A program made the translations under genes and the position numbers. The notes below the pieces were generated by a model. That model searched no databases. It saw only the letters and a list, made by a program, of their open reading frames with translations, and was not told the origin of the DNA. Below are positions 6,163-39,107 of a DNA stretch of 64,000 nt, piece after piece. The stretch spans positions 1-64,000 of the forward strand of contig QPGO01000243.1 in NCBI GenBank assembly GCA_008632985.1, read 5' to 3'. Each line of letters starts with the position of its first letter. Position 1 is the stretch's first letter. Origin of the DNA: Psammoneis japonica. Lineage: Eukaryota.

Positions 6163-7982
6163 AGACTCACTCTAGTCGACAAGTGGGACCAACTCTAGAA
6201 AAGAAATTGAATGTGTAATAGTGTAATTCATGACATTGATTTTGTAAAACCAATGCCAGGTAGCGCTTTTCATAAAGCATCATTGACTCACCGTTGGTGT
6301 ACATCAATTCAACTCACCCGACAAGATAGTGAAGATTTTTCAACTGCTGTACTGCACTTTCTGACAGTTCGATTGGAGGGGTGGGTGGTAGGCTTATGGG
6401 TTTACGGTAGGAGCTGGGGCTCCCCAGTTTATTTTGTCTGGCGAGGTGGGTTATGAGCCACTAGGACGTACCAAGTACCACGTACCGTACCACGCACCGC
6501 ACCACGTAGCACGGACCACGACGAGCGAGCGCATGGTGCACAGTGCAGTGCTACACACAGTGCACGCAAACGAACCGCAATGGCAGACACCATCCATTGC
6601 AAGAAGATGCCATTGAACGAATATACCATGGAGCATGATGCGCCTGCTGCAGACGAGTCTTTTCTCTCCTGAGGAACTTGTTCAATGAGAATCAAACAAG
6701 AGTTCTCAGACAAGATCACACTCTCTCTCCTTCTTGCGTGCAACAAAAGGCCTGTCCAGGTGCCCAGCTGGCAGAGCAGACTGCAGTTTAATGTGTGCAA
6801 TAGATCGCATGATGGATGGTTTAACCTGCGCTGTAGGGTGTGATCCCTCTGGGTTTAACAGGCAGCATGATGATGTGTTCCAAAAACTGGGCCCCCACTT
6901 TTTTTGTCGGGGGGATTCCACGTTTTATCGCGAAGTGCTCCCCCCCCAAACCCATGAGCCCAGTGGGTGGGTGGGTGGGTGAAAGGTGTGGTTTTTGCTT
7001 GGTGTGCGTGACCCTTCGGCCTTCGTGTCAAATTAAAAAACAACGGTCGCAGCTTCACGTTCGCACGTCAACCAGGGGGTTGCTTTCACTGGTGTGAAAT
7101 GCGTGGATGAGAAACAGACTCCTCATGAGTGGAGGGTTCTCATGGGACCAGTTGAGTTGCTGGCTTTGGGAAGCCACAAGGTGGCATGTTTGAGCAGAAT
7201 GTTCAATTGTGGCACATGTGCAGAAACTCAGCAGGACAACAATCTGTGGCATGCAGCAGATCATGGCAATCAAAAGGTGCTTTGATTTGGGGGCCTTGTT
7301 TTGCAGCAAAATGACCTTTTTCTTTTGATGAAAGATCTGCTGCAAGAGATTTTTCTGGCATTTCTGTGCAAAGCCACAAGGTGGCACAGTTGAGTGGAGT
7401 GCTCAACAACGGCATGCAAAAACTCAGTGCCAAACAAAAAGCTGCCTGCTGCTCCTCTTTTTCTTGCAGAAGCTGTCTCTCTCTGCAGGTCTGGGCTTTT
7501 TGCAAGGATGTTTTGGGCAAAATCCACACACTTGGTGGCCAGTGCAGAGCATGTCTGCAAATGGCCATGGCATCTTAAAACACATTCATTCTTTCTTGAA
7601 AGATGACATTGCTGTGGCGGCAATTGAGAACGCCACTTTGTTGCCTCTGCAGAGCTCAGAATTCAACAGATTTCTGTTTGCTGCTCTAAAAAGGCAGGCC
7701 ATGATCATGTGCACAAACAAGCAAAGAAAGTGCAATTTTGGGATGAGTGAGTGTGGCTTCTGATGCCAACTCTGGAAAGAGTGCCCTGTGTTTTTTCCCA
7801 AAGAAAAGCTTGGACAAACTCCTCTCAAAAATCTTTGGAGCCACACACCTCCTGGTGGGAAAACCTCAGAGTCAAAAATGATGATGGCAGGATTTTTGGT
7901 CAAAACATCTTCTCGCCAGCAGCCTGGTCATCATGGCTGCATTTTCATGAGTTTGTTGTAGAGTGAAAGTCACAAAACCCAA

Positions 7983-8241
7983 GGCCTGTTCCAGCTCCAG
8001 GTGCTCCGCGTGGGTGTGATTCCCATCATTCGGAAATTTGTGCATTTGGCCCAATTGACTTTTTCAAAATCCGTTTTTGCCAAATCGAAGGGTGAGCACA
8101 CACTTTGCGCGCATTTTTGGGTGTACACTCACCTTTTGATTTTCGAAACGATCAAAATTGAAGGAGTTAATTGAGCTGAACTGCGCAGAAAATCGGCCTC
8201 TCGCGTGATGAAAAGTGGATCACCTGGAGCTGGAATGGGCC
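7983..8241. mobile_element. MITE-like element (~260 bp) with ~25-bp TIRs starting GGCC and an internal hairpin
   Basis: GGCCTGTTCCAGCTCCAGGTGCTCC (7983) vs GGATCACCTGGAGCTGGAATGGGCC (8217-8241); internal inverted repeat AAATCGAAGGGTGAG...CTCACCTTTTGATTT (~8082-8141). TSD not clean. Confidence 0.65.
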
Positions 8242-8947
8242 CCAAGCAAATCAATTTGTGTCAAGCCGCCAATGCTGCTTCACTGCAAAACTGTCAATGT
8301 CCACACCTGGGAGCACATTTTCTTCACAAAGAACACCGCATTTGCAAATCATGCAATGTTGCTCAAACACAACAGGGTCTGACTCCTCATTGTCCCTGCC
8401 CCCTCTCTTTTTTTTTGCTGCTTCCTTTTTGTGCTTGCATGACCCCCACCCTTGAAGTTGTCATCAACTTGCACAGAAGGTGGCACCTTGTTCACTTCTC
8501 TGGCTCTGAAAAGAACAGCCCAACAAAACTTTTTTCACACCTGTTTCAGATCTCGACTTTCGATTTTTGTGGTCAGCAAGAAAAGCTGGGGATGAATTTG
8601 TGCTGCTCAAAATTGCTTGCACTCAAAGCCTGCTGTGTCTCAGAGAACAAGTGGCGCACTTGTGGTGTGCCTCTTTTTCAACTCCAAAACATGAGTTGTG
8701 CCCTCTTCTGCACAATGCCCAGGTTGTTTTTCATTGTGAGCACCACCGCTGAAAAGTGCACATTTGTGTTGCTTCTGTGGCGATGCCCTCCATGACTTTT
8801 TGGTGCTTGTTGTGTTGTCTTGAGGAGCTTCAGTGCAGCATGATGCCCTGCTTGTGCCTTGCCTGCCTTGATGCCATCACTGCCTTTTTGTCAGTGTCAG
8901 GCAACTCAGCATGGTTGCGCACTCCTGCTGTGTTCTTTTTCTTTCAA

Positions 8948-9175
8948 AGACCATCTGGGGGAAGTCTCCAGCCAGCTGCTGGCTGAAAAAAGTCTGCTCG
9001 TCAGTGCGTTTGGGGGTTTTGCAAGCACATTTTTTACGTGCACAGAAGAAGACGAGTCTGTCCAGCGTTCACCAAAACCCCCTGACGCACAGATTGACAG
9101 ACTCTTTCAGTGCAATTTCCACACAAAATTCTTCAGCCAGCAGCTGGCTGGAGTCTTCCCCCACATCCTTGGTCT
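8948..9175. repeat. Fold-back / MITE-like inverted repeat (~230 bp)
   Basis: GGGGGAAGTCTCCAGCCAGCTGCTGGCTGAA (~8957-8987) is the near-perfect reverse complement of TTCAGCCAGCAGCTGGCTGGAGTCTTCCCCC (~9132-9162); inner arms TGCGTTTGGGGGTTTT / AAAACCCCCTGACGCA. Confidence 0.7.
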
Positions 9176-9397
9176 GCTTTCTTCCAAAAAGGATTTCGAG
9201 AGCTTGTCAAGAGCCAACGATTTGGTGCTCTTCTTCACAAAAAAAGGATCTCTCCATCATCAGTGACTTTTTGGAAAAAGAAGTCGACCACATCGATGCA
9301 TCTGCCGGCATCTATCCGGTTCACACCCCGGCAGTCTGTCCCTCCCTCCCTCCCTGCATGCATGGGTGTGCATTTTGGATTTACGATCATCGTGTCA

Positions 9398-9962
9398 CTG
9401 TAGAGTGCGCGAAACGTCAGAATTGCGCGTTGGCGAAAACCACAACTTTTTTTCTCTCCTCCCACAGCCGCACATCCCGAGTTTTGCAATTGACGACGCT
9501 TTTGGCCTCAAACGGCGGCGAACAAGGCATCGGCAGAACCGCAATCATTGCAAGAACATGTGCATTGCTTTGTTTGTGAAAATCCGTAATGAGTTCGTCG
9601 AGAAAAGTGAATCTCGCAGTCGTTTTGCGTGCAATTTCGTGTTGGGTGTTCCCGAGAACGCGATTGCTTTTTCAATTTGGGCGTCATCCTCGTACGGAGA
9701 AACGCTGAATCACAGCTTTGTTGTAACACACATCTTGCCCACATGCTGGATCTTGGGATGCGTCTGTCTCGGCGTCACGACAAATCGTTTTATTGCTCAT
9801 TTTTTGGTCGCTGCTGTGTGTTGTGTTTGCTGGAGCTCATTGTTGTTGCTTCAAAGAGGATCCGCTCCGGGCCATCCAAGGCATGGAACGTCTCTTTGTT
9901 GTGTTTAAAAGAGATTCGTTGCTTTGAATTTTTCAAAACGGGGATCTCGGCGTCGTGAAATC
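9398..9962 (+). repeat. Left terminal inverted repeat (~565 bp)
   Basis: Reverse complement of 13951-14510 over its whole length, differing mainly by transitions. Confidence 0.93.
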
Positions 9963-10068
9963 GTTGTGTGTCGTCGGTGTTGTTGCCGCAGCATCCGTCT
10001 GTCATGGCTCCAACGGCATGTTTGCCTTTTCTCGTTCCTTGAGTGCAGGTTTTGCATCACGTGGCACC

Positions 10069-12282
10069 ATGAAGAAATCCATCTCTCAACGAACTTCATC
10101 TAGGAAGAGGCAACCAACAGCAGAAGCTAGGTTGGGTGAAGAGAACAGAAAGGACCAAGCTAGAGCCCACAAGAAACGCGGTGACAGCCGTGGAAGAAAG
10201 CACCGGTTGGATCTCCCGTTGTCACCAGACAGTGACGATGCGGGCGCATTGTTGAAAACACCAAGCATTTTCTCTAATGCCAATGGACAAAAATCGGGAA
10301 AGAAATCCTCCTCTTCTAGGTCGAGAAGCTCAAAGTCATCATCGTCATCCAAGAAGACACCCGGGTCGCGTTCAGATTCCGGCAATGCATCTGTTGATTT
10401 GGAAGAGAGAGAGCACACCATCTATGATCTGGATGCTTCACATGTCACAGTTAGGTTGTGCTTGCACGATGAACGAAAAACAAGCAGTCCCAAGTTCACC
10501 ACCCCGTTTAACTTTCGCGATGGACCCAACAGAGGGCAGGATTTGGTGTCGATTGCATCACTCGGCACTGGCTCCACCACAGAAGAAGTCGAGTCAGAAT
10601 TGGACGCACTCCTTTCTGCCGAAGGAAAGAAACTGATGCCGCACAAGACTTCAAACTCGAAGCCATGCTGCAGAACTGACCCCCAGATGGCGGATCCTCC
10701 AGGCAAGTGCGGTTCAAGCCGTGTGACGCCCACAGTTGCAGAGGCGCATTGGATGCATGCTCTGACTCATGTGTCGCACAAGAATTATGACGACGAAGGA
10801 GACATGGCTGATGATGAGAGTCAGTCTGACCCTTCTAGTGTCACTCTAGACCTGATCTGTGTTGTTGGGAACATTCAAGACGGAACAAGCACGGGGCAAG
10901 TGTCCAGGAAAAGAGGAACACAAGACGAAGAGCTGTCATTGGCCTTGCACCTTTTGCCTCCCGCAACGAACAAGGATGGAACGCATGTTGTTGCAGACAA
11001 GAAAGACGCGCAGCATGTTGCCACTCTAGAACCATCGGCTGATGGTGGCAGGGTTCAATGGAGTCTCGTGTGCAGCACTGTGTTGCGCGCGGCTGTCGAG
11101 GATCAACGGCACAAGGACAAAGATGGGAACTCGCACGTGGGAAAGAAGTCGTCATTGTTGCTCATGGAGGATTTTTCAAAAGCTCAAGTGAAGCTTCTCA
11201 ACTCTGCTGAGCATTTGTTTTCGGAAGCTCACAGGCGTGTCAAGGCAAAAAGCAAACCGCCTGAGGCACGGGATCCAAAATGCGCCTTCCTTCGTCTGTC
11301 TGTTGGAAAGAAGAAGAAAACCGATGAGCCGTGGGATGATGATGAGGAACCATCCATTCCCAGCTCCCAGGATGACAGAGTTGCAGCACTGCTCTCTCCC
11401 GAGAAAGCAGTGAAACCCCGCACTGCAAGAGAAACGCGAGAATTCGACGCAGAGGCTCCTGGAGAAGTCATCAAATTCATGAAAAAGTTGGTCAGCACCG
11501 ACATTGATTGCAACCCTTTTTATCATGCTCTCACACTGGAACACTGGAAAGCATGTAGACGGCATTGGAGCAACAGGACATCCATCGACGGCGAACGGCA
11601 GTTGCACATTTTTGAGGCGCATGAGCTGGACCCTGAAAAGCCAGATGCATGGCCGAACATTGATCTCGTGGCTCCAGAGGTTCATCCTTCTATGACCGAA
11701 GATGATGGCAGGTGTGGCGGATCAATCCAAAGAGGTGCGCATGAGGTGCAAGGAAACGGGTTGCCCAAATCATGCCGCGAGGATCCGGACATGGCAAATG
11801 AAGCGGGAAGGAACAAAGCAATGGAACGGATGGCGGAAGGCCAAGTCGATGCAGCTGCAGCTGTCCTGGCCCTGGCTAAAGCAAAAAGTGGACATTTTTT
11901 GGCTCCGGATGAAATGTTTGTCCATGTGATCAACACGGAATCAGAATGCACCGTGGGCATTTCGGTTCCATTCTCAGCAACCAAAACTGTTTGCACCGAG
12001 ATCTGCGACAACAGGAGACTGACAGATGCAAATGTTCGCAGTTGGTCAAAGGAAATTGTGAGGTCTGTTCGCAGCAAAGAAAAGGTGGTGCAGATTCACC
12101 TTTGGAACTCTTTGACCAACACAAGCGTCCTTTCATGGTTGGTGGAAGAGCTGGGGACACTTGCAATTGCGGAGTTGTTTCGCGCGGCGCCAAAAGATGA
12201 AAACAACAAACCAAAAGAACCAATCATTCTACACTTGGTGGTGGAAGATGTGGGTGCACTGTCCGATGCTTCTGCACTCTAG
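10069..12282 (+). CDS. Transposon-borne ORF of unknown function (~737 aa from ATG 10069)
   Basis: Open frame 9955-12282; basic/Ser-rich N-terminus with NLS-like SRKR, GRKHR and internal GKKKK; only 3 Tyr in 775 aa; no domain recognised. Confidence 0.75.
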   Translation: MKKSISQRTSSRKRQPTAEARLGEENRKDQARAHKKRGDSRGRKHRLDLPLSPDSDDAGALLKTPSIFSNANGQKSGKKSSSSRSRSSKSSSSSKKTPGSRSDSGNASVDLEEREHTIYDLDASHVTVRLCLHDERKTSSPKFTTPFNFRDGPNRGQDLVSIASLGTGSTTEEVESELDALLSAEGKKLMPHKTSNSKPCCRTDPQMADPPGKCGSSRVTPTVAEAHWMHALTHVSHKNYDDEGDMADDESQSDPSSVTLDLICVVGNIQDGTSTGQVSRKRGTQDEELSLALHLLPPATNKDGTHVVADKKDAQHVATLEPSADGGRVQWSLVCSTVLRAAVEDQRHKDKDGNSHVGKKSSLLLMEDFSKAQVKLLNSAEHLFSEAHRRVKAKSKPPEARDPKCAFLRLSVGKKKKTDEPWDDDEEPSIPSSQDDRVAALLSPEKAVKPRTARETREFDAEAPGEVIKFMKKLVSTDIDCNPFYHALTLEHWKACRRHWSNRTSIDGERQLHIFEAHELDPEKPDAWPNIDLVAPEVHPSMTEDDGRCGGSIQRGAHEVQGNGLPKSCREDPDMANEAGRNKAMERMAEGQVDAAAAVLALAKAKSGHFLAPDEMFVHVINTESECTVGISVPFSATKTVCTEICDNRRLTDANVRSWSKEIVRSVRSKEKVVQIHLWNSLTNTSVLSWLVEELGTLAIAELFRAAPKDENNKPKEPIILHLVVEDVGALSDASAL

Positions 12283-12318
12283 CAGATGAAGCGTAGATGG
12301 GGCATTTCAAAACTTTGG

Positions 12319-13857
12319 TCATGACTGTTTGCACACTGCAAACAGATTGGTCATCGACCAGACGGACCATCCGATGCCTCCGTGCTCTGCCAGCAGACAA
12401 ACCACACATGGTGGCATTTTAAAACTGCAGTCATGGCTGCTTGCACACGCTCTAGATGGATTGGCCAGACGGAGTGCAACTGTGTGTTTTAGTCTAGTCC
12501 AACACAACACAGCTGCTCGAATGGCTGTGTTGAATCCTCCAACACAGCTGAGGAAGAATTCTTCCTCAGCATCCCCCATCTTCCTTTCCTGATTGTCATT
12601 GCACCCTGGCACCCCACACTTGCGAAAACAGTTCCTGGCTTTTCGTGGCGTCATCTCTTCCAATGCCAGCTCGTGCGCCATTGACCAATTCATGCCTTCT
12701 TCATAAGAAAAACGCTTCAGGCCGGACTTGCAAACAGAGAAGCAGCACTCAATTGGATTCAAATCAGGGCTGCAAGCTGCTGCACAAACCAGCTTGGCTC
12801 CAGCATCTTCAATCAGTTGTCGAACGCAGTCGGAGATGTGTGTCGATGCGTTGTCCATCAGCACCACAGACCGCGGCTCGCAAAGATGACACCTCCCTAG
12901 AACCGGCACCAAATCATTCTCAACGTGTCTCTCAAACCTTTCCATGTCCACAGTCCCACGTTCCGGGTCATTGTCATGAGGGCCACATTCACGTTCTGCC
13001 AGCGTGCACGCTTCGATCACAAAACCGTTCATGTCTGCAGCACCAATCACAGTGCACCTCTTGCGAAAATCTTCCTCAAAATGTGCATCAACTGCGGGTG
13101 GTTTGCCAAATTTTCCCCAGCCACGCAAACGCCTGGATGCATTGGCACTCTTTGCCGTCTCATCAACAAAGACAGCCATCTCTGGTTTTTCTGCGAACAA
13201 CTCCAGCCGTTGAAAGCACCTCTCCCGCTCGGCCTTGCATCTTTGTCTTGAACGAAAAACCATTTTTTGAAGAGAGCAGCCCAGTCGGTGCAATTGACGC
13301 CATGTGGCAGAGGGGTGCCATGTTGTGCCCCGGCGTCGTCTCATTGAAAGCTGCATTTCATCGAGATGGAGATGCGGCTTCTCTCTCACGATGTCAAGCA
13401 GCACTTCATCACCCACCTCTGAAAATGATGCAGCTCTTGTTGTCACTCCGCGACGCCTTTTCCAGCTGTTCATTCTACGGCGAGCAGCAGCTTTTGTCTC
13501 ACCATGCTGAAGGCAGTGGTGAAACCAGTCATAAAATGTCTTGTGCTTGATCCTCCGGCCAAACATCTGATCAACTTCTTCCCAAACAGATTTGAGAAGA
13601 CGGATTTTCCCACCATCCTTCTGTGCATGCTGCCACGCATTGTCCCCCAGTTTTTCCATTGCAGTCTCAACACACTCCTTCTGCAGTTTCTTGTCGTCGT
13701 GCGCCATGCCACCATGCCGTCTAGGTGCATTCGGCCTGTTGCACGTGCAACGCCGAACTCCGGGAGCAACCCAAACCCCATGTGTCATGTCCCATCTTTG
13801 TGCCTCTCCAAAATTGTTACCCTCCCCCACAGCAAACAACTCAGCCACTGTTGCCAT
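12319..13857 (-). CDS. IS630/Tc1-like DD34E transposase (hypermutated, frame still open)
   Basis: HTH-like region (PHLHLDEMQ...WRQLHRLG), catalytic VFVDET, VVLMDNASTH, CSPDLNPIE with 34 residues between second D and E. Likely start MATVAELF at 13857. Confidence 0.92.
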   Translation of the reverse strand: MATVAELFAVGEGNNFGEAQRWDMTHGVWVAPGVRRCTCNRPNAPRRHGGMAHDDKKLQKECVETAMEKLGDNAWQHAQKDGGKIRLLKSVWEEVDQMFGRRIKHKTFYDWFHHCLQHGETKAAARRRMNSWKRRRGVTTRAASFSEVGDEVLLDIVREKPHLHLDEMQLSMRRRRGTTWHPSATWRQLHRLGCSLQKMVFRSRQRCKAERERCFQRLELFAEKPEMAVFVDETAKSANASRRLRGWGKFGKPPAVDAHFEEDFRKRCTVIGAADMNGFVIEACTLAERECGPHDNDPERGTVDMERFERHVENDLVPVLGRCHLCEPRSVVLMDNASTHISDCVRQLIEDAGAKLVCAAACSPDLNPIECCFSVCKSGLKRFSYEEGMNWSMAHELALEEMTPRKARNCFRKCGVPGCNDNQERKMGDAEEEFFLSCVGGFNTAIRAAVLCWTRLKHTVALRLANPSRACASSHDCSFKMPPCVVCLLAEHGGIGWSVWSMTNLFAVCKQS

Positions 13858-13950
13858 GAGACATGGAAAGGTCATGACCACAATCAACACTCGACAAAGC
13901 CTGCACTTCAAGCAACGAGAAAAAGGCAAACATGCCGTTAGATTGGCGAT

Positions 13951-14510
13951 GATTTCACGACGCCGAGATCCCCGTTTTGAAAAATTCAAAGCAACGAATC
14001 TCTTTTAAACACAATAAAGAGACGTTCCGTGCCTTGGATAGCCCGGAGCGGATCCTCTTTGAAGCAACAACAATGAGCTCTAGCAACACAACACACAGCA
14101 GCACCAAAAATGAGCAATAAAACGATTTGTCGTGACGCCGAGACAGACGCATCCCAAGATCCAGCATGTGGGCAAGATGCAATTACAATAAAGCTGCGAT
14201 TCAGCGTTTCTCCGTACAAGGATGACGCTAAATCGAAAAAGCAATCGCGTTCTCGGGAACACCCAACGCGAAATTGCACGCAAAACGACTACGAGATTCA
14301 CTTTTCTCGACGAATTCATTACGGATTTTCACAAACAAAGCAATGCACATGTTCTTACAATGATTGCGGTTCCACCGATGCCTTGTTCGCCGCCGTTTGA
14401 GGCCAAAAGCGTCGTCAATTGCAAAACTCGGGATGTGCGGCTGCGGGAGGAGAGAAAAAAAGTTGTGGTTTTCGCCAACGCGCAATTCTGACGTTTCGCG
14501 CATTCTACAG
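13951..14510 (-). repeat. Right terminal inverted repeat (~560 bp)
   Basis: Reverse complement of 9398-9962. Confidence 0.93.
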
Positions 14511-29400: not shown

Positions 29401-31086
29401 GCCAACTCAACAAGGGTAGTTCCTTCGTTGGGTGTGGCAATCTGAATCAGCTGAGCTATATCATCATGATTCTCAACGTAGTGCCGGGAATCAAGACCCC
29501 CTTTGCTGTGTGCAACAATGTTGAGTTTGTCCACACCCCAGCGTCTCTTTGCGTCAGCGATTGCTAATTTAAGGTCATGAGCATTGTTTGCAATAGAATC
29601 ATAACCTCCCAGGGAGATATGTCCGTCAAAGGGAATGCCGAGACTGGTCAAATGATTCGCCCATGTGCGCCCGATCCACATACTTGCACCTGCTCTATAT
29701 CCGTGAACCAGCAGGACGGGACGAGGTGCCTCATCAATTGTTAGTTCAACCTTGTCTACTTGGATGCACTGGACCAGCCCAGCACCGGTGACTTCGATAC
29801 GAACTCTGTTCATTTCTGGCTCCAGGGTTCCATCTTTTCCTGGGTCATCTGGAAAGTTGACTACCTCGAGTGGAATACTGAATCTGTTCATTTTCCATTT
29901 CCCAGGGTCGCCGGTGAGAACGCCAACTTCATCATCATTGAAGTAGACATGAAAGCGCATTCCATTTGATGGATATGGCCTGGTCGGATTGTACTCGATG
30001 TCGTAGGCCGCGATACGTAGGACTGCCACCTCAGGAATGAGACCATTTTCCAACAGTTTTGTAATATCTCCATAGTAAGGGACTACTGAGTCAATTTCCA
30101 ATGGGATGTTTGGACCATATGCACAGTTGTCCTCGAGCCTGGCTCCTGAGTACTGATCAAAGGCCAGCGCATCGATTCTAGGAATTCTGGTACTAATGAA
30201 CCAAGGAAGAACGGTCTTTCCATATCCACAATCTGAATCATGTTCTGGAATCCGCCGTATCCCCCTGGGGCATACATTAGCTGACTACGAGGCCGAAGGT
30301 CACCACTCCCTGTTAAGAAATGTGGAGGCCTATACTCGTTTCCTTGAGACTGCTGCGGAATGAGAACACCGTTGACCGTGTCGACTATATGGTGGTCAAA
30401 AAATGAATATGAAACACCCTTTAAGCTGTATTGATGCAACACATCATTTCATCAAAGCCGAGGCTAAGGCCAGCCCAGACACGTGGACAGCAAATTGGAG
30501 GTCGGTAACGATCTCCAATTATCGAGGTCACTCCGTTTGTGGTATCAACATTTAAGATATACCACACCCCTCCTATGTCGGTCTTCACAATGTAGATTCT
30601 ACCGGACTTATCGATTGCCAGTGTTCCGCTGTAGTCTGATGATCTCTGGTACGTCTTGAAGACTCGACCGGTTCTGTCATCAATGAAGACCAATTCCGAA
30701 ATACCAAAAGAACAAGAAATTCTGCCACAGTATGGATGGCTGACCAGTCCAACTAAATGGCCACGGTAGCTGTCGTAGGCTAGGGAATGGAAACGCCTGC
30801 GACCACTGTAATATGTGGTCCCATCGTTGGTAATCTCGTGGATGTAGCTCACAATATTGCTTTCTCCGGTTACCTCATCCACCTTGTAGAGTGTGGCTCG
30901 GGACGTGTCGTCTGTTCCCACAACGTACAGAGTACTGGCCGCTTCGCCGACCAACAGAGCCAACAGAGCGAGGACCTTTCCAATTGCTGATCAGACAAGA
31001 AGCAAGAAAGCGGTGAGCAGGATGGGAGGGGTTAAAAGAAACAAGTTTGCTCTCTGTGGTTCACCCTTACCTCCAGAAAACTTCAT
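26479..31086 (-). CDS. Large secreted multidomain protein: propeller-like N-terminus, alpha/beta-hydrolase (lipase-like), choice-of-anchor-X-like Ig domains, Pro/Ser stalk, C-terminal domain
   Basis: ATG 31086 plus a short intron gives MKFSGAIGKVLALLALLVGEAAS; PVLLVHG and NIVAHSKGGLDSR; LRDDGVSPDEVADDGIYTGQF; two DxDxDxxY repeats; PSxxPS repeats. One more intron near 29085-29190; about five other breaks look like frameshifts. Confidence 0.75.
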
Positions 31087-31352
31087 CTTCTATCCGATAA
31101 AGATGGCAGGTATGATAATGTAACGATGATGTATTGAAAAAGGTATCATTGCTTGAATTGTGGGATGAGTTCGCATCAAAGATACGAGTTCGCATTGAGA
31201 CAACGAACTGTGGCTACAGTACAGTAGGGCCCTACCGGTACGTACCGCATTGCCGAGTTAGGATCCACGAGATAGAGTGGATGGGTGCGCCCGCCCTCCG
31301 AAGCTAAGAGTGGGGTGCGCCATCCAAGGCTGTCCAAGGTGCGAGCAAATCG

Positions 31353-34300
31353 TGGCATGTGTCCGGTCACGTAGGTAGCTCCGAGTTTATGAAAAAAGAA
31401 GGGGCAAAGGAGGAGGAGGAGGAGGAGCGAGAGAGGGAGAGATGCATTCACAGTGTTCAGTGTGTGCAATGCGTTCAACGTGCGTGCACGACGCACAGAC
31501 GACCAGCGCTTCCGACACAGTCGCAGCTCCCCACTTTAGAGAGCAAACACTCTAAAGAACAGCAACGTGCCATGATCTGTCTGAGTCATTGCTCACGGAA
31601 AATTTGCACGCCCACTGATGATGCCACCGTTGAGATGCAACCGCACACCAAGCCAAAACTCCATCACTTTTTGCAGCCGGCTCCACCTCATTTTGTCCAT
31701 TTCCTCTCCAGACCCGACTGCATGCGGAAAGTTCCAGTGTCCAATTTCCCACATCAACAAAGAACATCAAAAGACTCAAGTCATTGAGAGCATTGGCATG
31801 GAAAGGCAGCTGCAAGCCCTTGCAGTCAAAAACATCTGTGCTGAAAAATGGCGGGCAAAATGAAAATGTGAGTGGAACCACGCACACAACAACAACCCAC
31901 TGAGGCCACATGTCACAGCGCACTCACTGTGTCAGCTTCCAGAGGTGGCACTGAGATGCCCCACCCAGTTTTAAGGCCCCAAGTGCTGCCAGTGGTTCGT
32001 GGCATCCGAGCATCCAAGAGGAGGTGAGGAGGCCGTCTGGGCAAGCCTTCGCCTCTCCATTTTGTCCGGCACAAAGCCTGGACTCGTTGGCACACTGCCA
32101 AGATCTCCCTGCATGATGTGGACAAAATTGTGTCTTGGACAATGAAGATTTGATTGCAGAGCCAGAAGAAAGGCTCGTCACAGACCAGACACCTGCACAC
32201 ATGAACGAGACACACAAAAAAGGCTCGTGAGGTGCGCGGCTTTCGTCAAAACGACTCTAAAACTCAATCAATCACAACGCACTCACAGGATTGTCTTTTT
32301 TGGAGCATGTGAAATCTGTCTTACAAACGTCATTGTTGCAAGTGTCTCCAAGGCTCCATCATGTTGTTTTGTTTCCACGGCATGCATTTTTGAGAAGTTG
32401 ACATTCTAAAAAATGACGTGCCATTGTTGTGCACTGACCAAGCCCCCAAGAAGGACATCAAGCAAGTCACAAATCCACCCCAATGTAAATGACAGGTGCG
32501 CCAAAGGATGCAGAGTGGGGTGCAGCACAAGGCTTCCAAATGGATGCACTGTGGTGGTGCAAATGCCGTGAAAAAGTTGCCAACTTTGCCAGAGCTTCAG
32601 TCAACCACGCGAGACAATCAATCGACCTTGCAAGCTGTGACAAAATGCAAAACAACAATCTTCAGCAAGCATTCAAATGGCATAAAATGAGAAAACATGG
32701 AAAGACCTCATCTCGGCAATGTTGTCGACCACTCAGATGTTGCCCGCACCGTGCCTCATTTGAGTTGCGAGTCAAGGCACGCAACCGTTTGCAGCATGTG
32801 CAGCAACCAAAGCACCCCAGGAGACCAAACCAATGCATCAACCTCTTTGTGACAATGACAGAAAGAGATCACCCATGAAAAATGCTTCTGCCCCACGATG
32901 TTTGCCATGCTGAGATGCATCAAAGTGCAGTGTGCATGGCCATTTCTTGTGGCGCGGCATGCCAAATCGGGAGCATTTGAGTGGAATGAAGAAAATGAAG
33001 AGGATTCCCTCTTTTGTGTCATTGCACAACTTGTGCCAGATTGGACTGTTCATTTCTGCTTGTCATCACAGAAATGGAATTTTGTCATTGTGGGATTCTG
33101 CACAAGTTCCAGCACATTTCCCACACAGTTTGTGAAGAGCCACACCTGCACAGCTGGATGATTGCCTGTTCTGGCACATGTCTGGTCATGCAGGTGGCTC
33201 CAAGTTTGTGGAAAAAAAGAAGAGGCAAATGAGGAGGAGGAGCCAGAGAGGGAGAGACGCATTTGCAGTGTTCAGTGTGTGCGCAATGCGTTCAATGTGC
33301 AATGTGCATGCACGATGCACAGACGGCCAGGGCTTCTGATGCAGTCGCAGCTCTCTGCTCTAGAGAGCAAACACTCCAAAGAACAGCAACATGCCATGAT
33401 CCATCCAAATGCATTGTCTGCTGCTTCATTGCTCACGAAAAATTTACATGCCCACTGATGACACCACCGCTGAGATGCAACCACACGTCAAGCCAAAACT
33501 CCATCACTTTTTGCAGAGCCGGCTCTACCTCATTTCATCCATTTTGTCTCTAGACCCAACTGGATGCAGAAAGTTCCAGCATCTAATTTCCCACATCAAC
33601 AAAGAACATCAAAAGACTCAAGTCATGGAGAGCATTGGTGTGGAAAGGCAACTGTGAGCCCTTGCAGTCAAAAACATCCATGCTGAAAAATGACAGGCAA
33701 AATGAAAATGTGAGTGGAACCACACACACACAACAACCATCCACTGAGGCCATGTGTCACAGTGTGCTTCCTGCGACAGCTTCCAGAGGCAGCTCTGAGA
33801 CGCCCCACCCAGTTTTAAGGCCCCAAGTGCCGCCAGCAGTTTGTGGCATCAGAGCATCCAAGAGGAGGCAAGGAGGCTGTCAGGGCAAGCCTCCACCTCT
33901 CCATTTTATCCGGTGCAAAGCCTGGACTTGTGGGCACACTGCCAAGATCTCCCCATGTAACGTGGATAAAATTCTGTCTCAGACAATGAAGCAAATCGAT
34001 TGCAGAGCCAGAAGAAAGGCTTGTCACAGACCAGACACCTGCATGCATGAACGAGACACACAAAAAATGGCTTGTGAGGCACACGACTTTCGTCAAAACG
34101 ACTCTAAAACTCAGTCAATCACAGTGCACTCAAAAGATTGTCTTCTTTGGAGCATGTGAAGTCTGTCTGACAAATGCCACTGTTGCAAGCATCTCCAAGG
34201 CTCCATCACATCATTTTGTTTCCATGGCGTGCACTTTTGAGAAATTGACATTCCAAAAAATGACATGCCATCGTTGTGCGCTGACCAAGCCCCCAAGAAG

Positions 34301-34987
34301 GACATCAAGCAAGTCACAAATCCACAATGTAGATGACAGGTGCACCAAGGGATGCAGAGTGGGGTGAAGCACAAGGCTTCCAAATGGATGCACTGTGGTG
34401 GTGCAAATGCCGTGACAAAGTTGCCAATGTTGCTGAAGCTGCAATCGACCGTACAAGATGATCAATCAACCTTGCAAGCTGTGACAAAATGCAACAACAA
34501 TCTTTGGCAATTGTTCAAATGGCACAAAACAAGAAAATGTAGAAAGAACTTGCCACGGCAATGTTGTCAACCATTCAGATGTCACCCGCATGGCCCCACA
34601 TTTGAGTTGTGAGTCAAGGCACGCAACCGTTTGCAGCATGTGCAGCAACCAAAGCACCCCAGGAGACCAAACCCATGCATCAACCTCTTTGTGACAATGA
34701 CAGAAAGAGATCACCCATGAAAAATGCACCTGCCCCACGATGTTTGCCATGCCCAGATGCATCAAAGTGCAATGTGCATGGCCGTTTCTCATGGCGCAGC
34801 ATGCCAAATCGGGAGCATTTGAGTGGAATGAAGGAAATGAAGAGGATTCCCACTTGTGCCAGATTGGACAGCTCATTTCTGCTTGTCATTGCAGAAATGG
34901 AATTGTGCTGTCACAGGATTCTACACAAGTTCCAGTGCATTTGCTGCGCAGTTTGTGAAAAGCCACCTGTGCAGCTGGACGATTGCC
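31353..34987. repeat. Direct tandem duplication, unit ~1.82 kb (31353-33166 and 33172-34987)
   Basis: Colinear landmarks offset by ~1.8 kb, e.g. AAAGAACATCAAAAGACTCAAGTCAT, CCCCAAGAAGGACATCAAGCAAGTCACAAATCCAC, CAGCTGGAYGATTGCC. Confidence 0.9.
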
Positions 34988-35167
34988 CAAATTGTTGTGG
35001 ACAAAGTTCTGTGGGCCGCACGTTGCATTGCAGTCACCGATGACCAGAGACTGCACAAATTGAATGATGGAAATGTCCAGCAATGTTGGCGTGACCAGAG
35101 GGTTGATCATTGTTGACAAATCATTTGCTTGCGCACACTCAGAGGCACAGTTTGACAACAAAGTTTG

Positions 35168-35206
35168 NNNNNNNNNNNNNNNNNNNNNNNNNNNNNNNNN
35201 NNNNNN
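35168..35206. other. Assembly gap (39 N)
   Basis: Run of N. Confidence 1.
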
Positions 35207-36099
35207 GGTTGTGGGTGAGTCAACCACAACAGTTGCATCATTGTTTGTGTCTTTGCTCTAAGTTTTTTGCCATGAGCAGTGTGAAGAGGTCCAGCTGAAA
35301 CTGGTGAGCAGCTGACAAAAAGTTGACAACCACAGTTGCTGGTGCAGCAGTGCCTCCTTGCAAAACGCAGTGCCGGAGCAGGATGTCGTCAGATTTCAGC
35401 ACCTTTTTGCAACATGGAGTGGGGGTTTTTCCCTGTGTGTTGCAACCTCAAGTGCTGGTTGACTTCTTGGTGGCAGGTTTGGCCACGCTGTTGCTGACAA
35501 GAGCACTGCATCTCAGCTGCCACCTGTTGTCATGCTGCACTGTGCTTCTGTGCATGCTCCAATTTTTGCAGCTGGTGTGGGTGCCAGATCTGCTGTCAGT
35601 TTCCACTCAAACATTGAAAAGCTGTGAAACCAGAAACAGCACAAAGAGAAGCTGCAAAAGGGGGGGGTGGCAGCACAAAGCTGTTTTCAAGGAGAGCAGG
35701 AAGCAGAGTAAATCAAAGAAACTGAAGCCAGCAAAAATGGAGAGGTCAAGAGCATTGGCTCAGATTTGAAGGCTTGAAAAGTCACTGGGTTCTACAATGA
35801 GTCTGTCTGTTGAAGTCTTTCTTGGTTGAGAGCTGTTTTTGGTCTCAGAGGTCATGAGAAAATGACTGCAACTGCACTGTGCTCCATTTCTGACAGATGC
35901 ACATGATGTTTCAGATTTCATTCAACAGGTCATCTGAGGTGAACAAGCATGCATTGCAGACACATGTGCCAGTGGAGAGACTGGTGTGATCTTAAAGTGA
36001 CTCTTCTTTGCAAAGGGAGCAAGCACCACAACATTCCCTCAATTTTGTGGTGGTGGAATTGGAGGGAGGCAAAGGAGTCATCTTGGGTGAGAACAGCAA

Positions 36100-38380
36100 T
36101 TGTTTGAAAAGGTGGAGCTGTGCGCATCTCCGGCAACATTGGCGCAGCACTTTGTGTCCTCAACACTGACAGCCAGAAGTGGTGGATTGGTCAACCAAGG
36201 TGCCACTTTAGCTGGGCAATCACACATGATGGTGTCCCATTCGTGGATTGTGCAGGACCAGCATTTGGAAAACAGCCATCATCCTGCCAAGCAGAAGCTC
36301 ATGGCATGCTGTTGATTGTTTGTTTCGCGTGTCATTTTGTGGAATTTTGCAGGGTCAAATCAACAAACAGAGTTGACAAAGCTTTGGTGTTTTGCTTGGA
36401 TTGCTTGACCCTCACGCCCCCCACCCCAACTCTCGCAGAAGATTCCAACAATGACTGAGATTTCCACTTGCAACATCACAGCGCCAACAACACTCTTGCT
36501 TCCAACTGGGGGGGCACAGTTGACAAAATTCTCCACATGCACATCATCCCCATCCAGTCTCACAATTCAATGGGTGAAAGGCCACCAAGAAAGACATGCT
36601 TCTGTCCACACTCTTCCCTTTCAGGCTTGAGTGAAAATCTGGGTGGATGAGTCAGCCGGTGCTTGCCAACGTCATTGTCCAGGGGATGCTGTGCAAGTGA
36701 TGCCATTTCCCAATTGCTGCACACATTTGTCAGTGGTGTAAGAAGGCACAGTGACTTTGACTTGCAATGCGGTGCTTGTCAAATGACACTCCAAGCAACA
36801 TGTCAATGCAGCCAAGCTTGTTCACAATCTTCTCCCTGCAAACAAGATCCCTCATCAGCATGATCTGGTCCAACCACATCATTGTTTGACCTGCAAACAC
36901 CCAATGAAAGACAGAGATCATGCACTGAGGTGCCCAGACAACAAAGAATGGCAAAAAAAGTTTTTGTGCAAGGTGGCACAAAAGCCACATGTTGTGGGGT
37001 TACAAACAAATGTTCAAATGCAAATTTGAACACATCCAATGACAAATTCACATGGAGCGCATGTCTGAACAAAAATGTCTTTTGGAGTCGCCACTTTCCA
37101 ACATTCTAAACATGCCATGACTCGTGATTCTCCACATGATGATTTCTCCCAAAAACCATCACTGTTTCACATCATCCCCATCCAGTCTCACAATTCTTTT
37201 CCCTTGCAGGCTTGAGTGAATGTCTGAGCAGATGAGTCAGTTGGTGCTTGCCAAGGTCATTGTCCAAGGCATGCTGTGCAAGTGATGCCATTTCCCAATT
37301 GCCACACACATTTGTCAATGGAAGAAGGCACAGTGACTTTGAGTTGCAAGAAACAGATCTGGCATGCAGCTGCTGCTCTCCAGCTGCTGGAGTGCATTGT
37401 CAAGTGCAGTCAGTGGTGCCCTGATGTTGCAGAACTGATGGACTGAAAAGCTCATGCAGTGCTTGTCAAACAGCACTCCAAGCAACATGTCAATTGCAGT
37501 CAAGCTTGTTCACAATCTTCTCCCTGCAAACAAGATCACTCATTGGCGTGATTTGGTCCAACCACATCCTCATTGTTTGCCCTGAAAATGCCCAATGGAA
37601 GACAGAGATCACACACTGAGGTGCCAGGACAATGAAGCATGGCAAAGAAAGTTTTTGCAAGGTGGCACAAAAGCCGTGAGTTGCAGGGTTACAAAAATGT
37701 TCAAATGCCAATTTGAGCACATCCAATGACAAATTCACATGGAATGCATGTCTGAACAAAAATGTCTTTTGGAGTCACCACCATCCAACCTTCCAAACAT
37801 GCCACAACTCATGATTCTCCACATGATGATTTCTCCCAAAAACCATCACCATTTCACATCGTCCCCATCCAGTCTCATAATTCTTTTCCCTTGCAGGCTT
37901 GAGTGAATGTCTGGGCAGATGAGTCAGTCAGTGCTTGCCAAGGTCATTGTCCAAGGCATGCTGTGCAAGTGATGCACCATTTCCCAATTGCCGCGCACAT
38001 TTGTCAGCGGAACAAGGCACAGTGACTTTGAGTTGCAAGAGAAACAGATCTGGCATGCAGCTGCCATTCTCCAGCTGCTGGAGTGCATTGTTGAGCGCTG
38101 TCAGTGGTGCCCCAATGTTGCAGAACTGATCGACTGAAAAGCTCGTGCAGTGCTTGTCAAACAGCACTCCAAGCAACCTGTCAATTGCGGTCAAGCTTGT
38201 TCACAAGCTTTTCCCCCTGCAAACAAGATCACTCATCAGCGTGATTTGGTCCAACCACATCCTCATTGTTTGCCCTGAAAATGCCCAATGGAAGACAGAG
38301 ATCACACACTGAGGTGCCCGGACAATGAAGCACGGCAAAGAAAGTTTTTGCAAGGCGGCACAAAAGCCACGAGTTGTGGG
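36100..38380 (+). mobile_element. Degenerate non-LTR retrotransposon fragment with its RNase H end / Zn-knuckle segment tandemly triplicated (~630-690 bp unit)
   Basis: CAGPAFGKQPSSCQAEAHGML, QWVKGHQE, CPMEDRDHTLRC; anchor CCCCATCCAGTCTCA at ~36548, ~37176 and ~37863. Confidence 0.8.
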
Positions 38381-39107
38381 GTTGCATTGGCGAGAAGGAA
38401 CGAAATTGATGTGCTTTGTGTGTGAGTGGTGGCTGCTGTGTGCCTTGCCAAGAGCCCTGCATGGTTGACCTGCTTCCTCCATGTGAGTGCAGAGTGGCAA
38501 AATGTGCTCTTGGGTCTTCTGGGAAAAGCCTCAGCTGGGGGGTCATTTGCTGCTTTTTCAGCTTGAATTTGGCCAAACAGCTTGTGACTTGCACAATTTT
38601 TCCACTTCTCCATGGTGAAAGGCATCAGGCCACAGTCTGTGTTGGAGGTGGCCTGTCCACCCACTGTCCTTTGTTTTGTGCTCGTTCTTGTTGTGTGCGT
38701 CAAGCCCAAATGTCACACACGCACAAACACACACACACATGCCACCAAATGTTTGTGTGGACCATGGGCACTCCTGCTGCATTTTAGAGAAACATTTGTG
38801 ATTGCCAGCATTGTCATGGTGCCTCGGTCATGGCATCATCAGGCCCAGGTGTGAGCATTTTTTGCACTAAAAAACAAACACCACAGACAACCTCGTTAGG
38901 GTGCAGAGGCGCAGCTCCAGGACAAGCTCGGACTCGGGGTCCCCAGAAAAAAAAATCATTCCAAGATGATGATGTTGTGAGTTTGAGCTGATGGAACCAT
39001 TCCCTTTGATGCCGTTCCTCCTCAGTTTGTGCCGAAAATGTTTCACTTCTCGCGCTTGTGACTTGTGACAAACTACGGTGCACAACATGATGGGTCGACT
39101 TTGAAAG

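What the first reader, a model, noticed from the sequence alone, without database searches (positions are those of the whole stretch)
6500..39050. Repeat-domain hypermutation that removes TpA (TA->TG/CA) as well as CpG: a reverse-RIP-like process in a diatom
Seen: across ~6.5-26.3 kb and ~31.4-39.0 kb TA is almost absent while AA, TT, AT and long A/T runs persist; flanking genes and intergenics are TA-rich (CTAG, GTAC). Three unrelated TE classes are affected alike: Tyr is replaced by Cys/His in conserved motifs (YSPDLNPIE -> CSPDLNPIE, YATSLDL -> HATSLDL, RT YxDD position -> HIDN), with 2 Tyr in the 556-aa transposase ORF and 3 in the 775-aa partner ORF. Known: 5mC deamination explains CG->TG/CA, and fungal RIP creates TpA (CpA->TpA). 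Neither removes TpA, and GC-biased conversion would not spare AA/TT/AT. Inference: a context-specific A:T->G:C mutagenic process acts on silenced repeat domains (candidates: DNA adenine deamination, modified adenine, or repair that mis-resolves T:G at YpR). I do not know of a description of this in diatoms.
Basis: partly seen in the sequence, partly recalled or inferred. Interest (0 to 1): 0.95.

Follow-up and report, generated by a model that had tools for sequence, protein, structure and literature searches.

The report
TpA-erasing hypermutation in diatom transposon islands
Two transposon-filled islands in a diatom chromosome have had nearly every TA step rewritten to TG or CA, on top of ordinary CpG decay, which points to an undescribed DNA-level mutation process that targets adenine:thymine pairs in one sequence context.

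Summary
Two sharply bounded blocks (about 6510-26296 and 31389-39073) hold 134 TA in 27,250 bp. The flanks hold 1403 in 36,300 bp. One TA-free run is 1903 bp long.

The TA steps were lost by mutation; the low TA is not native composition:
- A mutated duplicate of the SPX gene's promoter, exon 1 and intron has TG or CA at 24 places where the working gene has TA.
- All 10 conserved tyrosines of a transposase are now His or Cys.
- In-place tandem copies differ by 42 and 15 CA|TG doublets.

K-mer contigs of a DNA run reproduce the sequence at normal depth and bridge the block edges. This excludes a modified-base read artefact.

New here:
- Loss depends on the 3' neighbour, per strand: T-A-T > T-A-C > T-A-G > T-A-A. 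TTAA largely survives.
- The process is separable from CpG decay.
- Duplication does not trigger it.
- It shows no strand-coordinated runs.

The chemistry is inferred, not shown: adenine deamination or modification, or thymine modification. Ten literature searches found no description.

The parts
6510..26296 (.). TpA-erased block 1. Its first ~500 bp (6510-7034) are only partly depleted (TA o/e 0.30).
31389..39073 (.). TpA-erased block 2. It begins at the start of the tandem repeat (31353) and ends 220-400 bp upstream of SPX exon 1.
26297..31352 (.). Unaffected, transcribed gene island between the blocks (TA o/e 0.66, CG o/e 0.89). It serves as an internal control.
   Evidence: cDNA-like contigs of X2 with one intron (29080-29186).
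9398..14510 (.). Tc1/mariner-like DNA transposon with 565-bp inverted ends (9398-9962 and 13951-14510, 538/560 identical). TA o/e is 0.16 but CG o/e is 0.84. The flanking dinucleotides CA and CA are probably a mutated TA target duplication.
12319..14004 (-). DDE_3 transposase frame (P0001). Tyr is 0.4% and Cys 5.9%. All 10 conserved Tyr columns are His or Cys.
9928..12282 (+). Partner frame (P0002), with 3 Tyr in 784 residues. Where homologues have Tyr, His is its commonest residue.
17073..17825 (+). LTR-retroelement pol remnant. RT-like strings at 17163 and 17333 have His where Tyr is expected (that expectation is recalled from memory). RT_RNaseH_2 lies at 17562-17825.
24100..25380 (+). Mutated DNA-level duplicate of 38385-39792. 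It carries the upstream repeat plus the SPX promoter, exon 1 and part of intron 1. In the part 24551-25380 it has TA 4 and CG 12.
38951..39792 (+). Original SPX 5' region (exon 1 at 39294-39422, intron to 39821), essentially unmutated (TA 29, CG 40). It is used as the ancestral proxy.
31353..34987 (+). Two tandem ~1815-bp repeat units (31353-33166 and 33172-34987), 87% identical, with 42 CA|TG doublets between them. The family is multi-copy in the genome (word depth 390-940 against about 60).
36767..38386 (+). Second tandem repeat (period about 690 bp), with 15 CA|TG doublets.

Best explanation
The two transposon islands of this diatom chromosome have undergone a DNA-level, domain-restricted hypermutation. 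It converts TpA to TpG or CpA, that is, A:T to G:C at the self-complementary TA step. Ordinary CpG to TpG/CpA decay is superimposed.

Shown:
- The changes are mutations made in place.
- They hit every kind of sequence inside the domain: a DNA transposon, a retroelement remnant, unclassified repeats and a copied host promoter/exon/intron.
- They stop within a few hundred bases of neighbouring transcription units.
- They follow a per-strand trinucleotide rule, 5'-T-A-N-3' with N = T > C > G > A (relative rates about 9:7:3:1). RTAY sites are erased and TTAA mostly survives.
- The product follows the rule: YTAY gives YTGY.

Inferred:
- TpA is lost about 1.5 to 10 times faster than CpG and tens of times faster than other sites.
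- Sites are hit one by one, not in strand-coordinated tracts.
- The trigger is position or chromatin, not sequence duplication.

Inferred with lower odds (about 0.4 of the total): the lesion is on adenine. Either enzymatic deamination to hypoxanthine or a modified adenine at TA is read as G. The rule matches the YAY > YAR preference reported for TadA-derived DNA adenine deaminases.

Consequences, which follow from the genetic code:
- The process cannot create stop codons and destroys TAA and TAG. Long false reading frames persist, while Tyr codons and the TA-ending Leu, Ile and Val codons are rewritten.
- G+C stays at 0.48, because TA loss and CG loss cancel.

The confidence given (0.8) is for the real, in-place, TpA-specific, domain-restricted mutation process. 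It is not for the chemistry.
For: Mutation, not native composition:
- Copy 24551-25380 against the intact SPX 5' region 38951-39792 shows TA->TG 12, TA->CA 12, CG->TG 15 and CG->CA 13.
- Per-strand A>G at TpA is 24/57, against 10/181 (ApA), 13/115 (CpA) and 7/131 (GpA).
- Transposase: 10 of 10 columns where at least 8 of 11 homologues have Tyr are His (4) or Cys (6). Phe is kept in 8/9, Trp in 6/6 and Leu in 14/15.
- All 50 homologues have Tyr at 1.9-6.5%, against 0.4% here.

Made in place:
- CA|TG doublets are 42 of 62 adjacent double differences in tandem pair 1 and 15 of 24 in pair 2. In a flank repeat they are 1 of 22.
- The transposon's two ends differ by 15 YR-type events and only 5 other substitutions.

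Context rule:
- Residual TA density relative to the flanks is 0.65 for TTAA and 0.24-0.36 for CTAG, CTAA and TTAG.
- It is 0.00-0.013 for GTAT, ATAC and ATAT.
- A strand-additive 4-parameter model fits all 16 contexts (X2 9.3, 12 df, p 0.67). It beats a flat rate (LRT 127, p 2e-27).
- Product direction: YTAY gives TG 16 and CA 3; RTAR gives TG 6 and CA 9 (Fisher p 0.012).

Sufficiency: applying the two processes to flank DNA reproduces the direction of all dinucleotide shifts and the unchanged G+C.

Separate from CpG decay: transposon TA o/e is 0.16 with CG o/e 0.84. CG events show no context bias in product.

Real DNA:
- Contigs of DNA run X1 cover 20001-24439 with 14 differing letters, at depth 64.
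- Depth in the gene island is 58-62.
- Single contigs bridge 25598-27484 and 38562-39653.

Not homology-triggered: the original of the duplicated segment keeps TA 29 and CG 40.

No strand runs: 15 runs in 22 TA events, against a permutation mean of 11.9.

TadA-derived editors with YA and YAY > YAR preference: PMC12528748 (abstract and passages read).
Against: - Only one 64-kb window was available and no genome is held. Genome-wide generality, the age structure of TE families and the enzymes could not be examined.
- The context model uses flank DNA as a stand-in for the ancestral TE composition.
- Polarised events are few: 47, plus 10 Tyr codons.
- RTAR sites give only a weak bias (6:9). YTAR sites, for which the rule predicts little, still gave 3 TG and 8 CA.
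- The trinucleotide gain TGC exceeds the TAC loss, so composition differences or further changes contribute.
- Run X1 comes from one sample and may be the data the window was assembled from, so it is not independent of the assembly.
- The transposon interior is far more TA-depleted than its ends lost since insertion (about 21-34% of TA sites). Part of its TA loss therefore predates this insertion. The 'rate' may be a mixture of episodes.
- None of 37 metagenome loci encoding relatives of the transposase is TA-depleted (TA o/e 0.41-0.93). None of the 50 protein relatives is Tyr-poor. The process is therefore not general among diatom-like carriers of this element.
- Nothing in the data distinguishes a lesion on A from a lesion on the paired T.
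Confidence: 0.8

Rival explanations
1. The lesion is on thymine, not adenine. A TET/JBP-type or similar enzyme modifies T in 5'-R-T-A-3' within repeat chromatin (5-hydroxymethyl- or 5-formyl-uracil, or a J-like base). The modified base mispairs with G, giving T->C. This is the same mutation seen from the other strand. It is a rival only for the chemistry, not for the process.
For: - The rule T-A-Y on one strand is identical to R-T-A on the other, so fit equally well.
- TA is self-complementary, as expected for a symmetric, maintainable mark.
- Recalled, not from a call: dinoflagellate 5-hydroxymethyluracil is enriched at TpA and TpC; base J sits at T-A steps of telomere repeats; 5-formyluracil mispairs with G.
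Against: - No thymine modification was found reported for diatoms. Search one search listed 12 of 15 papers, all about dinoflagellates by title.
- No enzyme could be searched for.
- The gains are much more skewed by 3' base in the TGN products (Y 15.0 against R 2.1 per kb) than in the CAN products (11.7 against 5.5). This is most simply read as recognition on the A-bearing strand, but it does not exclude the T reading.
Confidence: 0.25
2. No dedicated enzyme is involved. Heterochromatin-specific replication or repair (a polymerase error bias, or glycosylase plus translesion synthesis at TA steps, left uncorrected in compact chromatin) slowly drives TA to TG/CA.
For: - Events look independent site by site, without strand runs.
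- The rate is of the same order as CpG decay in most units.
- The edges lie close to transcription units, where repair is expected to differ.
Against: - The specificity is extreme: a 50-fold difference between TTAA and ATAT. A>G is 4-8 times higher at TpA than in other contexts. AT, AA and TT are untouched.
- The young transposon lost most TA while its ends differ at only 5 of 560 non-YR positions.
- I know of no repair or polymerase signature confined to TpA (from my own knowledge). The E. coli VSP-repair effect depletes CTAG, which is among the least depleted contexts here (0.34).
Confidence: 0.1
3. RNA-level A-to-I editing (ADAR-like) of element transcripts, fixed by reverse transcription.
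For: A-to-G hypermutation of retroelements by RNA editing is known in animals (recalled; PMC4866542 and PMC4652623 were seen only in the search listing).
Against: - A DNA transposon is equally affected, and so is a copy of a promoter plus exon plus intron.
- The changes arose between copies in place.
- The domains have common sharp edges that span many elements.
- The 3' preference is pyrimidine, whereas ADAR prefers 3' G (recalled).
Confidence: 0.02
4. Sequencing or assembly artefact: a modified base at TA in repeat DNA is misread as G or C.
For: - The window has one 39-N gap.
- The only DNA run found may be the source of the assembly.
- Some assembly-versus-contig differences are CA<->TG doublets: 3 pairs among the 40 of 129 differences shown.
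Against: - A base misread on one or both strands would give mixed TG, CA and TA reads at every site and would shatter k-mer contigs every few tens of bases.
- Instead a 4.7-kb contig spans 20001-24439 with 14 differing letters, at the same depth as the genes. Contigs also cross both checked edges.
- The changes obey the coding logic of real mutation: 10/10 Tyr to His or Cys.
Confidence: 0.03
5. Native composition: the elements came from, or evolved with, a TA-avoiding sequence style, with no mutation in this genome.
For: Part of the transposon's TA loss seems to predate its insertion.
Against: - A host gene fragment copied into the block lost its TA.
- A transposase cannot function with all 10 conserved Tyr replaced.
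- All 50 relatives have normal Tyr content.
- The 37 related loci have normal TA.
- Doublets separate in-place copies.
Confidence: 0.02

Closest known systems
Repeat-induced point mutation (RIP) of Neurospora and other ascomycetes
   Same: A hypermutation that inactivates transposon DNA in place. It is restricted to blocks with sharp edges and some leakage at one edge (6510-7034), and it leaves a strong dinucleotide signature.
   Different: - The direction is opposite. RIP makes TpA from CpA and lowers G+C. Here TpA is destroyed and G+C is unchanged.
- The mutated base pair is A:T, not C:G.
- Duplication is not the trigger: the original of a duplicated 842 bp is spared.
- There are no strand-coordinated tracts.
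- No stop codons are produced.
Methyl-CpG deamination decay in methylated repeats
   Same: The target is a self-complementary YpR dinucleotide, the products are TG/CA, accumulation is site by site, and the same domains are affected. The CpG component is itself present here.
   Different: 5mC deamination cannot remove TpA. TA loss occurs with CpG almost intact in the transposon. TA loss has a strong 3'-neighbour rule, whereas the products of the CG events show no context bias.
TadA/ADAT adenosine deaminases and TadA-derived DNA adenine base editors
   Same: A->G through deamination. The reported motif preference is YA, with YAC and YAY > YAR (PMC12528748, abstract and passages). This resembles T-A-Y > T-A-R here.
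   Different: Those are tRNA enzymes, or laboratory-evolved ones guided by Cas9 to single-stranded DNA. No natural chromatin-directed DNA adenine deaminase is known to me. C-A is not depleted here. No enzyme was identified.
VSP-repair-driven CTAG loss in E. coli
   Same: T:A to C:G change at a TA-containing word, giving CCAG/CTGG. It shows that repair tuned to 5mC damage can erase TA words.
   Different: That effect is limited to CTAG in a Dcm-like context. Here CTAG is one of the best-surviving contexts (0.34), while ATAT, GTAT and ATAC are erased.
5-hydroxymethyluracil and base J (dinoflagellates, kinetoplastids)
   Same: Thymine modification enriched at T-A steps in repetitive DNA (recalled). 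This could give the same signature read from the other strand.
   Different: It is not known to cause TpA loss. It is not reported for diatoms in the papers listed (12 of 15 listed; titles and abstract starts only).

Membership tests
RIP (repeat-induced point mutation) | C:G to T:A transitions, mostly at CpA, creating TpA and AT-rich DNA | tested here: not met
   TpA is removed (o/e 0.02-0.16 in the units inside the blocks; 0.30 at the left edge). TG and CA are in excess. G+C is 0.48 inside and outside the blocks.
RIP (repeat-induced point mutation) | Triggered by duplication, with both copies mutated | tested here: not met
   The duplicated segment 38951-39792 keeps TA 29 and CG 40, while its copy 24551-25380 has TA 4 and CG 12. 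Selection on the promoter and exon could protect some sites but not the intron.
RIP (repeat-induced point mutation) | Dependence on a RID or DIM-2 type methyltransferase and on a sexual stage | not testable with these tools
   No genome is held.
Methyl-CpG decay | CG to TG/CA, without need for other contexts | tested here: met
   This holds for the CpG component only: C>T at CpG is 25/71, against 1/44 to 12/114 elsewhere. Across four repeat pairs there are 96 CG events with balanced products. It does not account for the TA loss.
ADAR-type RNA hypermutation of retroelements | An RNA intermediate is required; 3' G and 5' U/A preference (recalled) | tested here: not met
   A DNA transposon and a promoter plus intron copy are affected. 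The changes arose between in-place copies. The 3' preference is T > C > G > A.
GC-biased gene conversion | All A/T to G/C changes are favoured, regardless of neighbour | tested here: not met
   A>G is 42% at TpA against 5-11% elsewhere. AA, TT and AT are unchanged.
TadA/ADAT-like adenine deaminase acting on DNA | A->G with a pyrimidine 5' of A and a YAY > YAR hierarchy | tested here: inconclusive
   T-A-Y > T-A-R is met. C-A is not visibly targeted. The same pattern fits a thymine lesion at R-T-A.
TadA/ADAT-like adenine deaminase acting on DNA | A deaminase-fold enzyme encoded by the organism and recruited to repeat chromatin | not testable with these tools
   No genome or proteome is held.
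Tc1/mariner-type DDE transposon (the element at 9398-14510) | DDE_3 transposase, terminal inverted repeats, TA target duplication | tested here: met
   DDE_3 E 2.3e-15. Inverted ends of 565 bp, 538/560 identical. The flanking dinucleotides are CA and CA, consistent with a mutated TA but not proof.

The most novel reading that the evidence does not exclude
This diatom has a natural, chromatin-targeted system that chemically alters the A:T pair at TA steps of transposon DNA. It could be a DNA adenine deaminase. It could instead be a symmetric, heritable TpA base modification that mutates as methyl-CpG does. Its recognition rule is 5'-T-A-Y-3'. It would be a second, independent genome-defence and epigenetic layer beside cytosine methylation. 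If it is a deaminase, it would be the first natural double-stranded-DNA A-to-G mutator.
Probability: 0.35. Interest if true: 0.95.

Novelty: new variant of a known kind. Interest (0 to 1): 0.86.

Why it matters
Every transposon-directed hypermutation described so far, as far as I know, acts on cytosine: RIP, methyl-CpG decay and APOBEC editing. A process that erases TpA through A:T to G:C changes would be a new mutational chemistry in eukaryotic genome defence.

- It inactivates elements by removing Tyr codons and other TA-containing signals rather than by making stops.
- It hides from G+C-based repeat detection, because G+C is unchanged.
- It produces long false reading frames that gene predictors may call.
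- Its tight trinucleotide rule implies a specific protein. That protein, a natural DNA adenine deaminase or a TpA-modifying enzyme, would interest epigenetics and base-editing work.
- It also gives a simple genome-wide marker (TA o/e) for mapping diatom heterochromatin.

Tried and rejected
- Whole genome: none is held. No genome-wide scan, TE consensus or enzyme search was possible.
- Earlier notes of this scan: nothing on this genome or on look-alikes. The TpA word search returned only unrelated entries, mostly about phages.
- Pfam on 141 stop-free frames of the blocks gave one significant hit, RT_RNaseH_2. A further 44 short frames around the pol remnant gave nothing credible. The RT core and a third TE class are therefore not confirmed.
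- Metagenome search with the mutated transposase found no relative. With the alignment it found 37 loci, none TA-depleted.
- RNA: no RNA holder was listed for the stretch. X2 behaves like cDNA (it skips introns) but is recorded as 'DNA?'. It covers genes, and inside block 2 only three short stretches (68, 35 and 35 bases) at 31626-31693, 31990-32024 and 34554-34588. No conclusion on the expression of the blocks is drawn.
- Strand-coordinated tracts (a processive single-strand deaminase) were tested and not seen.
- Partner frame P0002: 27 distant relatives. Tyr positions are mostly His, Ala or Cys, but the alignments are weak.
- Literature: ten searches found no description of TpA loss in diatom or other eukaryotic repeats. 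Two further queries failed on term format. The library lacks most subscription journals, and no genome paper for this organism could be identified or read.

Full report
**1. The observation**

A 1-kb dinucleotide scan shows TpA observed/expected at 0.00-0.23 in all 19 bins from 7001 to 26000. It is 0.03-0.14 in all 7 bins from 32001 to 39000, and 0.36-0.80 in the other 38 bins. TG and CA rise to 1.4-2.3 in the same bins.

Counts per 250 bp and the TA positions place the edges at 6508-6622, 25543-26296, 31389-31536 and 38898-39073. The blocks hold 134 TA in 27,250 bp and the flanks 1403 in 36,300 bp. One run of 1903 bp (22536-24439) has no TA. In the flanks the mean gap is 26 bp and the longest is 310 bp.

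The books balance. Per 250 bp, TG+CA gains about 21, TA loses about 10 and CG loses about 10. G+C is 0.48 inside and outside.

**2. What lies in the blocks**

Pfam finds two element types:
- A DDE_3 transposase at 12319-14004(-). It sits inside an element with 565-bp inverted ends at 9398-9962 and 13951-14510.
- An RT_RNaseH_2 fragment at 17562-17825(+).

Nothing else in 141+44 stop-free frames matched credibly.

A self-comparison adds three more features:
- Two tandem ~1815-bp units at 31353-34987.
- A second tandem array at 36767-38386.
- A duplicate (24100-25380) of 38385-39792.

The second half of that duplicate's source (38951-39792) lies outside block 2. It is the promoter, exon 1 and first intron of an SPX-domain gene. 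The intron at 39422-39822 is skipped by a cDNA-like contig.

The flanks carry ordinary eukaryotic genes. Of the best 120 eIF2A hits listed, those that carry an organism name are all diatoms, at 47-51% identity. The host is therefore a diatom, not close to any named one.

**3. The TA was lost by mutation**

(a) The SPX 5' region serves as an ancestral proxy.
- Its copy inside block 1 has TG at 12 and CA at 12 of the proxy's TA sites.
- It has TG at 15 and CA at 13 of the proxy's CG sites.
- The copy has TA 4 and CG 12; the original has TA 29 and CG 40.
- Per strand, A>G is 24/57 at TpA, against 10/181, 13/115 and 7/131 after A, C and G.
- C>T is 25/71 at CpG, against 1/44 to 12/114 elsewhere.

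(b) The transposase has 50 relatives at 27-59% identity.
- All have Tyr at 1.9-6.5%, against 0.4% here.
- In an alignment with the 11 closest, all 10 columns where at least 8 of 11 have Tyr are His (4) or Cys (6) here.
- Phe is kept in 8/9 such columns, Trp in 6/6 and Leu in 14/15.

(c) The changes arose in place.
- The tandem units differ by 42 CA|TG doublets out of 62 adjacent double differences, and the second array by 15 of 24.
- A repeat in the flank gives 1 of 22.
- A doublet is what two independent hits on one ancestral TA or CG leave.
- The transposon's two ends differ by 15 YR-type events and 5 other substitutions in 560 positions.

**4. The sequence is real DNA**

One DNA run (X1) holds 87% of the sampled words of a 10-kb stretch. 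When its contigs are laid on the window:
- They cover 20001-24439 in one 4.7-kb piece with 14 differing letters, at word depth 64.
- The depth in the gene island is 58-62.
- Single contigs cross two edges (25598-27484 and 38562-39653).

If a modified base were misread, reads from the two strands would disagree at every former TA, and k-mer contigs would break every few tens of bases. They do not.

The run may be the assembly's own data, so this excludes a chemistry artefact rather than giving independent replication. Among the 40 of 129 differences shown, three are CA<->TG doublets and nine are CG<->TG/CA. This suggests that the processes were still active after the compared haplotypes or copies diverged.

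**5. A trinucleotide rule (new here)**

Residual TA density relative to the flanks depends strongly on the neighbours:

| Context | Residual density |
|---|---|
| TTAA | 0.65 |
| CTAA | 0.36 |
| CTAG | 0.34 |
| TTAG | 0.24 |
| TTAC | 0.19 |
| GTAA | 0.14 |
| ATAA | 0.13 |
| GTAG | 0.09 |
| CTAC | 0.085 |
| TTAT | 0.08 |
| CTAT and GTAC | 0.05 |
| ATAG | 0.04 |
| ATAT | 0.013 |
| ATAC | 0.012 |
| GTAT | 0.00 |

In the fitted model each strand contributes a rate set only by the base 3' of its own T-A. The rates are A 0.24, C 1.62, G 0.71 and T 2.23. The model fits all 16 contexts (X2 9.3, 12 df, p 0.67) and beats a flat rate (LRT 127, 3 df, p 2e-27).

The products agree with the rule. In 47 polarised events plus the 10 Tyr codons, YTAY gave TG 16 times and CA 3 times. 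RTAR gave TG 6 and CA 9 (Fisher p 0.012). Strand-symmetrised trinucleotide gains point the same way: TGC +11.1 and TGT +3.9, against TGG +1.5 and TGA +0.6 per kb in the CpG-normal element.

CG events show no such bias. Applying the two processes to flank DNA reproduces the direction of all dinucleotide shifts. These include the rise of GC and the fall of AC, AT, GA and TC.

There are two caveats. The flanks stand in for ancestral TE composition. YTAR events (3 TG, 8 CA) are not predicted by the rule.

**6. Relation to CpG decay, rate and trigger**

- Separate from CpG decay. The transposon has TA o/e 0.16 with CG o/e 0.84. All other units inside the blocks have TA 0.02-0.12 with CG 0.18-0.52. 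TA loss therefore does not need CpG loss, and it runs ahead of it.
- Rate. From the transposon ends, 6-10 TA events occurred among about 29 TA site-copies. There were 7 CG events among about 92 CG site-copies, and 5 other changes in 1120 bases. By my arithmetic TpA is lost about 3-4 times faster than CpG and tens of times faster than background. In the older SPX copy the ratio to CpG is about 1.6.
- Earlier episodes. The transposon interior is more depleted than its ends lost since insertion. Part of its loss therefore predates this insertion.
- No strand runs. TA events along the SPX copy form 15 runs among 22 events, against a permutation mean of 11.9.
- Not homology-triggered. The original of the duplicated segment is spared.
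- Edges. They lie about 180 bp from a transcript's 3' end and 220-400 bp upstream of SPX exon 1. One edge has a 500-bp partly depleted zone.

I infer targeting by position or chromatin. Chromatin state itself was not testable.

**7. Mechanism**

Shown: a DNA-level, domain-restricted A:T to G:C change at TA with a per-strand 3'-neighbour rule.

Inferred: a protein reads the trinucleotide, because a 50-fold context range is hard to obtain from passive chemistry.

My ranking:
- A lesion on adenine, either deamination to hypoxanthine or a modified adenine read as G, about 0.4. TadA-derived DNA adenine deaminases show YA, YAC and YAY > YAR preferences (PMC12528748, abstract and passages).
- A lesion on the paired thymine at R-T-A, about 0.25. 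It cannot be separated from the first with sequence alone.
- Repair or polymerase bias in compact chromatin, about 0.1.
- RNA editing, artefact and native composition, together under 0.1, for the reasons given under the rival explanations.

**8. Consequences**

By the genetic code, TA to TG or CA never makes a stop codon, and it removes TAA and TAG.
- In the blocks, 86% of stop triplets are TGA.
- Stop-free frames of 70 residues or more are 79 per 10 kb, against 56 in the flanks.
- The long frames in the blocks are therefore no evidence of function.
- Elements are killed by missense at Tyr and at TA-ending codons.

**9. Comparison and novelty**

The process works like RIP and methyl-CpG decay in that it is in-place, repeat-domain hypermutation. 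It fails the defining tests of RIP (direction, duplication trigger). It also fails those of ADAR editing, biased gene conversion and VSP-type CTAG loss (see the membership table).

Ten full-text searches found no description. The library omits most subscription journals. None of 37 related metagenome loci and none of 50 related proteins shows the signature, so it is not a general property of carriers of this transposon family.

I rate it a new variant of a known kind, repeat-directed hypermutation. There is a substantial chance that the underlying chemistry is categorically new.

Noticed in passing
CpG-depleted parts of the blocks (6600-9250, 14750-26250, 31400-39000): Surviving CpG is strongly context-dependent. 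GCGC keeps 0.89 of the flank density, and GCGT and GCGG keep 0.47 and 0.40. Most other NCGN contexts keep 0.12-0.29. This may reflect the sequence preference of the CpG methylation system.
   Followed up: no
window 31990-32024 and 34554-34588: The cDNA-like run X2 has very deep (about 1500-1900) short contigs that match only 35 bases here. They continue into TA- and CG-containing sequence unlike the window (tables 7 and 8). This may be an unmutated, highly expressed relative of the tandem-repeat family, or a chance match.
   Followed up: no
window 31340-35341: Word depth in DNA run X1 is 390-940, against about 60 elsewhere, so the ~1815-bp tandem unit belongs to a multi-copy family. Contigs also join the two units in alternative registers (tables 2 and 5).
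   Followed up: partly
window 9396-9397 and 14511-14512: The dinucleotides flanking the transposon's inverted ends are both CA on the + strand. This is what a Tc1/mariner TA target duplication would become after the TA-erasing process.
   Followed up: partly
window 9928-12282 (+), residues 660-782 of P0002: The C-terminal ~120 residues of the transposon's partner frame recur up to 10 times in very long proteins of unknown kind, for example P0173 with 3765 residues. No Pfam family matches.
   Followed up: no
window 23839-23840, 24043-24044, 37163-37164: The assembly and the DNA-run contigs differ by whole CA<->TG doublets at these sites. If these are allelic, both strands of a former TA or CG may have been hit close together in time.
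   Followed up: partly
window 35168-35206: A 39-N assembly gap lies inside block 2.
   Followed up: no
window 3625-6162, 26479-28919, 47312-48421, 59829-60878: Long open frames in the TA-normal flanks have no Pfam match. cDNA-like contigs cover the stretch that holds the two overlapping frames 26479-27912 and 27810-28919.
   Followed up: no
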